DNA of 64,000 nucleotides from a virus. Within the stretch, counting starts at the first letter, position 1, and every line of letters begins with the position of its first letter. A model generated the notes under the pieces. That model searched no databases. It was not told the origin of the DNA and saw only the letters and a list, made by a program, of their open reading frames with translations. Below, in pieces: positions 18,721 to 19,150 of the stretch. Where the stretch lies: positions 1-64,000 of IMG/VR virus record IMGVR_UViG_3300019487_000004. One strand, given 5' to 3'. The translations under genes were made by a program, and so were the position numbers.

Positions 18721-18850
18721 GAAGCGGCCGAGGAGCACAGCGTAGTGTTCACCTTGCGGTGCGCACGGGATTCGAACCCGTAACATTCAGCTCCATAGGC
18801 TGTCGGTCTACCATTGACCTAGCGTGTTCGCTGGGCGGTGTGGCCGCTTC
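18721..18850 (-). tRNA. tRNA-like element B2: permuted-type acceptor (GCAA cap, split 4/5), anticodon loop CUAUGGA
   Basis: D arm GGUC-AAUGGUA-GACC, T arm ACGGG-UUCGAAU-CCCGU. Positions 66-72 (GCGCACC) pair with CGC upstream plus GGUG after GCAA. Flank helices are CAGCG/CGCUG and GAAGCGGCC/GGCCGCUUC. Confidence 0.55.
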
Positions 18851-18855
18851 GTTCG

Positions 18856-18985
18856 TCGGGGAACTAGGAGTCGAACCTAGCTGTCGTGTAGATGCAGTCG
18901 AGTGATCGACATGTCGATCGAGAGGCAGCATCGAAGCTTTTATGCTTGATCCAATATCAAGTGCCGCCCACGCGGCTTTTCCCCG
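18856..18985 (-). tRNA. tRNA-like gene with a 58-nt insertion (element A2), anticodon loop UAUUGGA (UUG if read canonically)
   Basis: Acceptor CGGGGAA/UUCCCCG, discriminator A, T arm CUAGG-UUCGACU-CCUAG. Insertion GAUGC..GAUCGA-CAUG-UCGAUC..GCAUC-UACA. Confidence 0.55.
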
Positions 18986-19027
18986 AGAAGTGTTTTCGTC
19001 GTCGTCAGCTATTCGGTTGTCAGGCGG

Positions 19028-19150
19028 CGGTGGAACTTGGAATCGAACCAAGTCAACTTGTAGACGATCAAGAGTGACGAGCGTGCTCGTCGAGGGCGAA
19101 CGTCGGAACAACGGCTTTCACACCGTCTGGCCTCCAAGGCCAATTCCACC
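19028..19150 (-). tRNA. tRNA-like gene with a 51-nt insertion (element A3), 8-nt anticodon loop UGUGAAAG (GAA/Phe-like)
   Basis: Acceptor GGUGGAA/UUCCACC, discriminator G, D arm GGCC-UUGGA-GGCC, T arm CUUGG-UUCGAUU-CCAAG. Insertion GACG..GACGAG-CACG-CUCGUC..CGUC-UACA. Confidence 0.55.

What the first reader, a model, noticed from the sequence alone, without database searches (positions are those of the whole stretch)
18791..19120. Non-canonical anticodon loops in three of the five tRNA-like genes
Two elements have textbook loops: CUGAUAA (Ile GAU) and CUUCCAC (Gly UCC, with the U73 discriminator usual for bacterial tRNA-Gly). The other three do not. 18721-18850 has CUAUGGA, whose A34-U-G anticodon is not used by bacteria as far as I know. 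18856-18985 has UAUUGGA, with A where the near-universal U33 should be. 19028-19150 has either an 8-nt loop UGUGAAAG or a 6-nt loop, depending on the closing pair. These could be decoys or mimics, targets of editing or modification, or frameshift/suppressor-type tRNAs.
Basis: seen in the sequence. Interest (0 to 1): 0.6.

Follow-up and report, generated by a model that had tools for sequence, protein, structure and literature searches.

The report
Rule-breaking anticodon loops, handle-tagged phage tRNAs
The three odd anticodon loops are real and conserved, and they belong to a widespread, apparently undescribed family of phage tRNA-shaped RNAs that carry an extra two-helix "handle", travel with a Ro60-like gene, and have given up the near-universal U33.

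Summary
Observation confirmed. On the minus strand the loops are CUAUGGA (18792-18798), UAUUGGA (18950-18956) and UGUGAAAG (19115-19122).

None of the five genes is an ordinary tRNA. Three carry a covarying two-helix handle of about 55 nt in the variable region. Two have a GCAA-capped acceptor stem, with the same handle emerging between nt 4 and 5.

A covariance model finds 150 such elements beside a Ro60-like gene in 53 of 65 phage loci, and 34 more on contigs binned mostly to Myxococcota.

- **Loop size:** of 99 parsed normal-order members, 75 have 7-nt loops and 16 have 8-nt loops.
- **U33:** only 43 of the 75 seven-nt loops keep it, against 821 of 876 ordinary tRNAs in the same loci.
- **Other positions:** nt 34-38 stay class-specific and tRNA-like.
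- **Acceptor ends:** they look chargeable. Stems have 7 bp, C74 is 95% conserved and the discriminator follows the anticodon class.
- **GUN/AUN loops:** 15 of 19 lack the Y33-G34-U35 motif that colicin E5 requires.

Best reading (about 0.4): working spare tRNAs whose loop 5' side was remodelled to escape anticodon-directed host enzymes. The main rival is that they are non-decoding Ro60-partner baits. They are not pseudogenes.

The scan has noted this family before on other DNA. I found no description of it in the searchable literature.

The parts
19025..19150 (-). E5: normal-order tRNA-shaped gene. It has a 7-bp acceptor stem GGUGGAA/UUCCACC, then G73-CC. The anticodon arm is GACGG-UGUGAAAG-CCGUU, an 8-nt loop holding GAA. 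The two-helix handle sits in the variable region.
   Evidence: The R1/R2 hit at 19036-19108 scores 88.4 and 71.2 bits.
19115..19122 (-). E5 anticodon loop UGUGAAAG (8 nt, or 6 nt if U:G closes it).
   Evidence: GAA-class relatives carry every base at position 33: AGGAAAA, UUGAAGG, CAGAAAA, CCGAAAA.
18854..18985 (-). E4: normal-order tRNA-shaped gene. It has acceptor CGGGGAA/UUCCCCG and A73. The D arm is GCCGC-GUGG-GCGGC and the anticodon arm is CUUGA-UAUUGGA-UCAAG. The handle sits in the variable region.
   Evidence: Its ortholog is L002:3275-3405, with the same loop and a covarying stem.
18950..18956 (-). E4 anticodon loop UAUUGGA (A33, UUG, G37).
   Evidence: In the UUG class (n=9 as listed), UUGG (nt 34-37) is constant, nt 38 is A in 6 of 9, and nt 32-33 vary.
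18720..18851 (-). E3: capped form. The outer helix pairs CGAAGCGGCC with GGCCGCUUCG. The tRNA core has D, anticodon and T arms. The acceptor 3' strand GCGCACC is capped by G-CAA and pairs with GGUG (nt 1-4) plus CGC (nt 5-7).
   Evidence: The lead came and I verified it by eye. Rfam tRNA scores 46.1 bits on 18762-18824.
18792..18798 (-). E3 anticodon loop CUAUGGA (U33, A34-U-G, G37).
   Evidence: AUAUGGA recurs in L018 and L067.
18574..18710 (-). E2: normal-order gene with loop CUUCCAC (UCC), acceptor GCGGGGU/ACCCCGC, U73-CC, a Sec-like 6-bp D stem with a 4-nt loop, and a 63-nt handle insert.
   Evidence: All 8 members of the UCC class have U73.
18442..18573 (-). E1: capped form with loop CUGAUAA (GAU). 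The acceptor 3' strand GCUCCUC is capped by G-CAA and pairs with GAGG plus AGC. The handle helices are GAGAGCAGUC/GACUGCUCCC and GUAGCGUG/CACGCUGC.
28634..30565 (-). Ro60-like protein gene (643 aa, helical repeats plus a vWA domain). Handle-bearing RNAs co-localise with it across phages.

Best explanation
The three odd loops are a selected trait of a family of phage tRNA-shaped RNAs.

Each member joins a tRNA body to one conserved two-helix handle. The body has a Sec/allo-tRNA-like D arm and a normal T arm. The handle runs: outer stem, a CUC-rich internal loop, an inner stem, then YACA(A/C)G. It most likely docks the neighbouring Ro60-like protein.

In this family the 3' half of the anticodon loop (nt 34-38) is kept as in real tRNAs and is specific to each anticodon class. 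The 5' half (nt 32-33) is free. U33 is often replaced, an extra 5' base is tolerated, and G34 is often swapped for A34.

I propose that the normal-order members (E2, E4, E5) are processed by RNase P, completed with CCA and charged by the cognate synthetases. They would then serve as spare tRNAs that escape host enzymes which read U33/G34, such as colicin-E5-type and PrrC-type anticodon nucleases, and Tgt.

The capped members (E1, E3) would display the same kind of loop without being chargeable unless the cap is cut.

Shown: the structures, their conservation, the co-localisation and the loop statistics. Inferred: charging, decoding, nuclease escape and Ro60-like binding.
For: Handle.
- Its helices covary: 94% of cells are paired against 65% in shuffles and 30-49% when slid, with 131 double-change cells against 36.
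- There are 150 hits at E<1e-3 in 53 of 65 Ro60-like loci. 145 of 147 lie on the gene's strand.
- There are 34 more hits on contigs binned mostly to Myxococcota.
- In five whole jumbo-phage records, hits occur only in the one cluster.

Ro60-like protein.
- The ten best PDB fold matches are all Ro60/Rsr/phiLo Ro60, at E 8e-8 to 3e-5.

Signs of chargeability in the 107 normal-order members.
- 99 have 7 of 7 acceptor pairs. C74 is present in 102, CC in 51 and CCA in 27.
- The discriminator follows the anticodon class: 36 of 49 share the class majority, reached by 1 of 10000 permutations. Examples are U73 in 8 of 8 UCC, A73 in 5 of 6 GUA and G73 in 5 of 6 GUU.
- The 36-to-37 rule holds: G36 is followed by G37 in 17 of 20, and U36 by A37 in 18 of 19.

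Release of the loop's 5' side.
- Within-class pair identity is 93% at N37 but 54% at N33, close to stem positions at 39-50%.
- Purine-33 occurs in 26 of 75 loops, against 2 of 876 ordinary tRNAs.
- G33 is conserved in 5 of 6 GUA members despite different stems.
- Y33-G34-U35 survives in 4 of 19 R34-U35 loops, against 98 of 105 ordinary ones (p=6e-11).
- Colicin E5 needs exactly YGU, and U33 to A or G nearly abolishes cleavage (PMC1635277).
- For gamma-toxin, a purine at 32 or G33 cuts cleavage (PMC2275089).
- The general idea that phage tRNAs escape anticodon nucleases through loop changes is published (PMC10264068).
Against: - There are no expression, charging or cleavage data.
- The host and its nucleases are unknown.
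- U33 loss and 8-nt loops should lower decoding efficiency.
- Jumbo relatives carry canonical tRNAs with the same anticodons in the same loci, so a plain spare-tRNA role is partly redundant.
- Capped and permuted members cannot be charged as transcribed.
- The D-arm core lacks U8/A14-type contacts.
- For gamma-toxin, A33 stimulated cleavage, so non-U33 is not protective against every nuclease.
- ARAGORN's own rules may inflate U33 in the control set.
- The Ro60-like fold match has low TM (0.18-0.27), and Pfam TROVE does not hit.
Confidence: 0.4

Rival explanations
1. They are non-decoding Ro60-partner RNAs, that is Y-RNA-type tRNA mimics. The handle binds the Ro60-like ring. The tRNA body and its class-specific anticodon loop act as bait or guide for anticodon-reading host proteins, or direct the particle to damaged tRNAs. 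They are never used on the ribosome.
For: - They co-localise with and share the strand of the Ro60-like gene, as Y RNAs do with Ro60 (PMC4201824).
- Capped acceptors occur in E1 and E3. Permuted relatives have the order T arm, capped acceptor, D arm, as in YrlA.
- U33 is unconstrained and 16% of loops have 8 nt.
- Jumbo relatives duplicate the same anticodons in canonical tRNAs.
- Anticodon arms differ between the two related phages on similar scaffolds.
- Earlier scan notes on other DNA reached this reading, but these are not independent evidence.
Against: - Class-specific discriminators, 95% C74 and frequent encoded CCA are hard to explain for pure baits.
- Rfam YrlA scores only 20 bits against a cut-off of 69, and there is no YrlA hit in three arrays.
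- A bait should copy U33 of its model.
- Up to about 8 different anticodon classes per phage is unlike the 1-2 Y RNAs of known systems.
Confidence: 0.3
2. They are recoding tRNAs. The 8-nt loops and odd anticodons serve programmed +1 frameshifting, quadruplet reading or stop-codon suppression in phage genes.
For: - E5 and 16 of 99 family members have 8-nt loops.
- The phage's tRNA with a canonical body at G000 111645-111720 has the 8-nt loop UUUACUAA. Its G001 ortholog has CUUUAUAA.
- The family includes a few loops with UUA and UCA anticodons.
Against: - In most 8-nt loops the extra base lies 5' of a retained U and the triplet. Examples are CAUGUAAA, AUUUUGGA and UGUGAAAG (read by eye). From my own knowledge, classic frameshift suppressors instead enlarge the anticodon or position 37.5.
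- Most anomalies are U33 or A34 substitutions, not size changes.
- Long standard-code ORFs fill the phage.
Confidence: 0.08
3. The loops are made canonical after transcription. This could be by A34-to-I editing, other modification, or removal of the handle as a protein-dependent intron or leader-trailer element, leaving ordinary tRNAs.
For: - A34 occurs in 13 of 75 loops.
- The same handle flanks otherwise canonical tRNAs as a paired leader and trailer, with ACAA|G at +1. In those cases it is probably removed.
- One relative encodes its own RNase P RNA next to the array.
Against: - No known editing turns A, G or C at position 33 into U.
- Removing the inner hairpin would still leave more than 20 nt of variable region.
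- There is no bulge-helix-bulge motif.
- G000 has no RtcB, CCA-adding enzyme or RNase P RNA.
- I34 in two-codon boxes would misread NNA codons (my own knowledge).
Confidence: 0.07
4. They are decaying pseudogenes of ordinary phage tRNAs.
For: ARAGORN and Rfam miss three of the five.
Against: - All helices covary strongly.
- 99 of 107 members have 7 of 7 acceptor pairs.
- Loops stay identical across phages while their stems change.
- The family is spread over more than 70 loci.
Confidence: 0.02

Closest known systems
YrlA-type bacterial and phage Y RNAs with Ro60/Rsr (Chen et al. 2014, PMC4201824; Rfam RF02553; Thermus phage phiLo Ro60 with Yrl1/2, PMC12135203)
   Same: Both are tRNA-mimicking small RNAs encoded next to a Ro60-type gene. 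Both have a stem, internal loop, stem module formed at or near the RNA ends. Both can have a capped acceptor. The permuted relatives share the order T arm, cap, D arm.
   Different: - The Rfam YrlA score is far below the cut-off.
- A full anticodon arm is present, with class-specific loops.
- Most members have normal gene order, free 7-bp acceptor ends and N73-CC(A).
- There are up to about 8 per phage.
- The handle sequence (CUCG ... YACAAG) is unlike GNCGAAN0-1G.
- The partner protein is only a remote Ro60 relative.
Phage tRNAs with anticodon-loop changes proposed to escape anticodon nucleases (van den Berg et al. 2023, PMC10264068)
   Same: Both are phage-encoded, and both show loop substitutions at positions that nucleases read. 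Examples are loss of the colicin E5 determinant Y33-G34-U35 and changes at positions 32/33.
   Different: The published cases are otherwise canonical tRNAs that keep U33. Here U33 itself is lost in 43% of loops, loops can have 8 nt, and the body carries a 55-nt extra arm and a non-canonical D arm.
allo-tRNAs and tRNA-Sec-like tRNAs (Mukai et al. 2017, PMC5389517)
   Same: Both have a long D stem with a 3-5-nt loop, a long variable region and diverse anticodons. A few members here can be drawn 8/4. The published allo-tRNAs are described as possible suppressors or regulatory RNAs.
   Different: - The acceptor/T arrangement here is mostly 7/5.
- The variable region is a long linker plus a conserved two-helix module, not a simple arm.
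- Discriminators follow the anticodon class instead of the Ser rule.
- The tRNA-Sec model gives 31 bits against a cut-off of 47.
Circularly permuted and split tRNA genes (the Cyanidioschyzon merolae and Nanoarchaeum cases are recalled from my own knowledge; PMC4090602 was only listed and I did not read it)
   Same: Relatives in other phages place the 3' half before the 5' half, with the ends meeting in a helix. E1 and E3 have the natural ends joined by a tetraloop.
   Different: The setting is bacterial or phage. There is no bulge-helix-bulge motif. The junction lies in the variable region or between acceptor nt 4 and 5. No ligase was found in this phage.

Membership tests
Canonical elongator tRNA (Rfam RF00005) | Score at or above the gathering cut-off over the whole model | tested here: not met
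   Only the cores of E1 and E3 score (51.7 and 46.1 bits), and only over model positions 5-66. E2, E4 and E5 give no tRNA hit.
Canonical elongator tRNA (Rfam RF00005) | 7-nt anticodon loop with U33 and purine 37 | tested here: not met
   E4 has A33 and E5 has an 8- or 6-nt loop. E3 has U33 but A34. E1 and E2 meet the feature.
Canonical elongator tRNA (Rfam RF00005) | 7-bp acceptor stem with free ends, and a T arm with GTTCRANYC | tested here: inconclusive
   Met in E2, E4 and E5 (7 of 7 pairs). In E1 and E3 the stem is complete only through a GCAA cap and is broken at nt 4/5. The T loop is present in all five.
Canonical elongator tRNA (Rfam RF00005) | Variable region of 4-5 nt, or a class II arm | tested here: not met
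   The region is 55-63 nt, with two covarying helices and an internal loop.
YrlA / Y RNA (RF02553) | Covariance-model score at or above 69 bits | tested here: not met
   The best scores are 20.2 and 16.8 bits in the window. There is no hit at E<0.05 in three related arrays.
YrlA / Y RNA (RF02553) | Encoded beside a Ro60 (TROVE) gene | tested here: inconclusive
   The array lies about 9.5 kb from a protein whose model best matches Ro60 structures, but Pfam TROVE is not hit. Family-wide, 53 of 65 loci co-localise.
YrlA / Y RNA (RF02553) | Binds Ro60 through the terminal stem | not testable with these tools
   This needs EMSA or pull-down with the 643-aa protein.
allo-tRNA / tRNA-Sec-like | 8/4 or 9/3 (or 8/5) acceptor/T arrangement | tested here: not met
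   The window elements are 7/5. A few relatives, such as L020:16681 and L020:16853, can be drawn 8/4.
allo-tRNA / tRNA-Sec-like | Long D stem with a short loop, and a long variable arm | tested here: met
   D stems have 5-7 bp with 3-5-nt loops. The tRNA-Sec model gives 31 bits, below its 47-bit cut-off.
Nuclease-escaping phage tRNAs | Loop substitutions at nuclease recognition or cleavage positions relative to host tRNAs | tested here: inconclusive
   The host is unknown. Against ordinary tRNAs of the same phages, YGU is kept in 4 of 19 loops versus 98 of 105, and purine-33 occurs in 26 of 75 versus 2 of 876.
Nuclease-escaping phage tRNAs | Resistance to cleavage while still decoding | not testable with these tools
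   This needs cleavage and translation assays.
+1 frameshift suppressor tRNAs | 8-nt loop with the extra base in or 3' of the anticodon | tested here: not met
   E5 is U-G-U-GAA-A-G. In most of the 16 family 8-nt loops the extra base lies 5' of a U that precedes the triplet (read by eye).
Permuted tRNA genes with a BHB motif | 3' half upstream of the 5' half, with ends forming bulge-helix-bulge | tested here: not met
   Window elements keep the order D, anticodon, T. Permuted relatives exist, but their ends form the handle with a 5x5 to 7x8 internal loop, not a BHB.

The most novel reading that the evidence does not exclude
These phages run a parallel set of 'class III' tRNAs. Each has a tRNA body tied to a protein-docking handle. 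They exist in normal-order, capped and circularly permuted forms. The permuted forms would mature into two-piece tRNAs clamped by the handle, without any ligation. The set would work as a Ro60-type particle that keeps translation going, or soaks up attackers, when the host destroys ordinary tRNAs. U33 would be dispensable for this.
Probability: 0.2. Interest if true: 0.9.

Novelty: new variant of a known kind. Interest (0 to 1): 0.72.

Why it matters
U33 and the 7-nt anticodon loop are among the most invariant features of tRNA. Here a large, conserved family keeps chargeable-looking acceptor ends and tRNA-like positions 34-38, yet drops U33 in 43% of its members. In one class a purine at 33 is even conserved.

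If these RNAs decode, they show how far the anticodon loop can be remodelled in nature. They would also be ready-made nuclease-resistant or orthogonal tRNA scaffolds with a built-in protein handle.

If they do not decode, they greatly widen the Ro60/Y-RNA world and give the tRNA-like part of Y RNAs a concrete job.

Either way, they link phage tRNA arrays, Ro60-type proteins and the conflict over host tRNA cleavage in one testable system.

Tried and rejected
- **Strict DNA patterns.** Two patterns for the insert in IMG/VR found only the one close relative plus chance hits in coding DNA.
- **Neighbouring 216-aa ORF.** It gave no useful relatives.
- **Model R1 in the 309-kb phage.** R1 found nothing in the 309-kb phage that shares the vWA gene.
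- **Rfam at E<=10.** No ribozyme, intron or known RNA family covers the insert.
- **Intron idea.** The inner hairpin is too small for a self-splicing intron. There is no BHB motif, and no RtcB in the phage. Removing the hairpin would not give a normal variable loop.
- **Codon supplementation.** The anticodons cover both the commonest codons (AUC 86%, UUC 88%) and rare ones (GGA 6%, CAA 22%, CAU 26%). This was a rough gene call limited to ORFs with GC3 >= 0.7.
- **Serylation through a long arm.** Discriminators follow the anticodon class, not the Ser rule.
- **Promoter and terminator scan.** Nothing usable. The two 'terminators' it reported are D arms.
- **Sequence search of the Ro60-like protein against PDB.** No Ro60 hit. 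Only the fold search shows the relation.
- **The YCGA motif.** It sits at the 5' side of the handle in the window's copies but is not conserved family-wide.
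Full report
**What is there**

The window is the first 64 kb of a complete 137.9-kb phage genome with terminal repeats and 63% G+C. Five tRNA-shaped genes lie head to tail on the minus strand between 18442 and 19150.

- CUGAUAA at 18513-18519 (E1).
- CUUCCAC at 18672-18678 (E2).
- CUAUGGA at 18792-18798 (E3).
- UAUUGGA at 18950-18956 (E4).
- UGUGAAAG at 19115-19122 (E5).

ARAGORN reports only E1. Rfam's tRNA model scores only the cores of E1 and E3, and only over model positions 5-66.

**None of the five is an ordinary tRNA**

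E2, E4 and E5 have perfect 7-bp acceptor stems, normal T arms, and D arms with 4-6-bp stems and 3-5-nt loops. Between the anticodon and T arms they carry 55-63 nt. This stretch folds into an outer stem, an internal loop rich in CUC, and an inner hairpin closed by CAYG, followed by UACA(C/A)G.

E1 and E3 look broken in linear order, with 3-4 of 7 acceptor pairs. The three bases before the D arm complete the stem.
- In E1, GAGG plus AGC pairs with GCUCCUC.
- In E3, GGUG plus CGC pairs with GCGCACC.

So the acceptor stem is capped by a tetraloop and opened between nt 4 and 5. Two helices with a CUC-containing internal loop emerge there and carry the RNA's ends. It is the same two-helix device in another position.

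**A family, not a curiosity**

A related 121-kb phage has an ortholog of E4 with the identical loop UAUUGGA on a covarying stem. It also has a capped element with loop CUACUAA and a handle-bearing element with loop CUAUCAA.

A covariance model of the handle plus T arm (R1) found nothing else in these two genomes. It did hit about 28 places next to relatives of the window's 643-aa protein (28634-30565) in jumbo-phage contigs.

A profile search with that protein gave 66 IMG/VR loci. A rebuilt model (R2) hit 150 places at E<1e-3 in 53 of 65 loci, with 145 of 147 on the protein's strand. In five whole records the hits lie only in that one cluster. A further 34 hits lie beside the same protein on contigs binned mostly to Myxococcota.

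The handle's helices covary strongly. Cells paired are 94%, against 65% in shuffles and 30-49% when slid. There are 131 double-change cells against 36.

The handle occurs in four topologies.
- As an arm in the variable region.
- At acceptor nt 4/5, with a capped acceptor.
- As the meeting point of the ends in circularly permuted genes. These run T arm, acceptor 3' strand, then N73-CCA-spacer or a tetraloop, then acceptor 5' strand, D arm and anticodon arm.
- As a paired leader and trailer around otherwise canonical tRNAs, where ACAA|G puts the G at +1.

**The partner protein**

Pfam sees only a vWA domain, and a sequence search of PDB finds no Ro60. An AlphaFold model from nine homologs has pLDDT 72.6. 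Its ten best PDB matches are all Ro60, Rsr or Thermus-phage Ro60, aligned over 477-626 columns at E 8e-8 to 3e-5, though with low TM of 0.18-0.27.

Y RNAs are encoded next to Ro60 and mimic tRNA (PMC4201824; PMC12135203). I therefore infer that the handle is the docking site for this protein. That is an inference from co-localisation only. Rfam's YrlA model does not recognise these RNAs.

**Anticodon loops across the family**

I parsed 107 unique normal-order members. Where registers tied, the parser preferred a 7-nt loop.

Of the 99 with at least 4 of 5 stem pairs, loop sizes were as follows.

| Loop size | Members |
|---|---|
| 7 nt | 75 |
| 8 nt | 16 |
| Other | 8 |

Position 33 differs sharply from the 876 unique ordinary tRNAs that ARAGORN calls in the same loci.

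| Base at 33 | Handle family (75 seven-nt loops) | Ordinary tRNAs (876) |
|---|---|---|
| U | 43 | 821 |
| A | 15 | 0 |
| G | 11 | 2 |
| C | 6 | 53 |

Fisher's test gives p of about 1e-16. ARAGORN's own rules may favour U33, so the contrast is somewhat inflated.

Non-U33 stems are as well paired as U33 stems.

Position 37 is a purine in 70 of 75 loops and follows the usual rule. G37 follows G36 in 17 of 20, and A37 follows U36 in 18 of 19.

Within anticodon classes, pair identity is 93% at N37 and 54% at N33. Stem positions give 39-50%. So the 3' half of the loop is held and the 5' half is free.

Read by eye, most 8-nt loops look like a normal loop with one more base 5' of a retained U. Examples are CAUGUAAA, AUUUUGGA and E5's UGUGAAAG.

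The three window loops have class relatives.
- **E4:** UUGG (nt 34-37) is constant in the nine UUG members listed, and nt 38 is A in 6 of 9. Positions 32-33 read UA, AA, AU or UU.
- **E3:** AUAUGGA recurs in two other phages.
- **E5:** permuted GAA-class relatives carry G, U, A or C at position 33.

**Do they act as tRNAs?**

Several features argue for processing and charging of the normal-order members.
- 99 of 107 have 7 of 7 acceptor pairs.
- C74 is present in 102, CC in 51 and CCA in 27.
- The discriminator is tied to the anticodon class, although acceptor stems differ. It is U73 in 8 of 8 UCC, A73 in 5 of 6 GUA and G73 in 5 of 6 GUU. Overall 36 of 49 share the class majority, a value reached by 1 of 10000 permutations.

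From my own knowledge, these match the E. coli identity rules for Gly, Tyr and Asn. The UUG, CUU and part of the CAU classes do not match.

One relative even encodes a class A RNase P RNA next to the array (299.5 bits).

Against a plain translation role:
- Jumbo relatives already encode canonical tRNAs with the same anticodons.
- The window phage's anticodons cover both very common and rare codons.
- Capped and tetraloop-permuted members cannot be charged as made.

**Why the 5' side of the loop?**

Loops with R34-U35 correspond to the Tyr, His, Asn and Asp classes. Among them, only 4 of 19 handle-bearing loops keep Y33-G34-U35, against 98 of 105 ordinary ones (p=6e-11). The motif is lost either through a purine at 33 or through A34.
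- CGGUAAA occurs in 5 of 6 GUA members despite different stems.
- CGGUUAA is a second purine-33 example.
- AUG, AUC and AUU carry A34; AUG is E3's anticodon.

Colicin E5 requires exactly YGU. Its cleavage is nearly lost when U33 becomes A or G (PMC1635277). Gamma-toxin is impaired by a purine at 32 or by G33, although A33 helps it (PMC2275089).

That phage tRNAs escape anticodon nucleases through loop changes has been proposed for otherwise canonical tRNAs (PMC10264068).

I therefore commit to this reading: the loops were remodelled to avoid, or possibly to trap, host enzymes that read U33/G34. The normal-order members are most likely still chargeable spare tRNAs (0.4). The main rival is that all of them are non-decoding Ro60-partner baits (0.3). 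Recoding, editing or splicing, and decay rank lower, for the reasons given under rival explanations.

**Limits**

The host and its nucleases are unknown. Ro60-like binding, charging, decoding and nuclease resistance are all inferred.

The scan has noted the same kind of handle-bearing, Ro60-linked tRNA-shaped RNAs, and U33 departures in Ro60-linked arrays, on other DNA. I treated those notes as leads and re-derived the points used here. I found no paper describing the family in the searchable library.

Noticed in passing
Outside the window: G000 C1:111645-111720 and 111726-111798 (minus strand): The phage's only other two tRNA genes have canonical bodies (57 and 46.7 bits) but odd loops. One has an 8-nt loop UUUACUAA. 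The other has a 6-nt loop GUUACA, which ARAGORN reads as A34 'ACA'. The orthologs in the related phage G001 (61921-61993 and 62066-62139) have the 8-nt loop CUUUAUAA and the loop CCAAAAG with C33. So loop anomalies are not limited to handle-bearing genes.
   Followed up: partly
L024:18020-18384: A jumbo-phage contig encodes a full bacterial class A RNase P RNA (299.5 bits against a 100-bit cut-off) a few kb from its handle-tRNA array.
   Followed up: no
L019 ~20530-20700; L020 ~15820-15960 and ~16930-17075; L024 ~14600-14745; L023 ~14355-14500; L025 ~15270-15420: These are circularly permuted tRNA-shaped genes: the T arm and acceptor 3' strand come before the acceptor 5' strand, D arm and anticodon arm. 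The natural ends are joined by N73-CCA plus a 5-11-nt spacer, or by a tetraloop. The RNA ends meet in the handle.
   Followed up: partly
L019 20862-20937 and 21138-21212; L022 17403-17478: These are otherwise canonical tRNAs: Leu-UAA, Arg-ACG and Phe-AAA. Their leader and trailer pair to form the same handle, with ACAA|G at the RNase P site.
   Followed up: partly
window 27477-28028 (minus strand): A HAD domain of the 'Swiss Army Knife' RNA-repair type (Pfam HAD_SAK_2, E=1.3e-26) is encoded next to the Ro60-like gene.
   Followed up: no
window ~18995-19022 and L002 ~3236-3262: A conserved intergenic word TGACAAC(C/G)GAATAG...GACGACGA lies just upstream of E4 and of its ortholog. It may be a phage promoter or a processing signal. 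The sigma-70 scan found nothing there.
   Followed up: no
L089-L113 (genome contigs): Relatives of the Ro60-like protein (48-60% identity) lie mostly on contigs binned to Myxococcota: Kofleriaceae, Polyangia, Sorangium and Paraliomyxa miuraensis. 34 handle hits sit beside them. This suggests myxobacterial hosts, or phage contigs that were binned with them.
   Followed up: partly
window 15419-17752 (minus strand): A second vWA protein (777 aa; phrog_2426, E=1.9e-160) lies just downstream of the array, followed by a dual-specificity phosphatase at 14562-15209. The vWA gene also occurs in a 309-kb phage that has no handle RNAs nearby.
   Followed up: partly
window 18166-18441 (minus strand): About 280 nt after E1 have no convincing ORF. 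The only Rfam hit is a weak radC-RNA match (16 bits). I did not analyse this stretch further.
   Followed up: no
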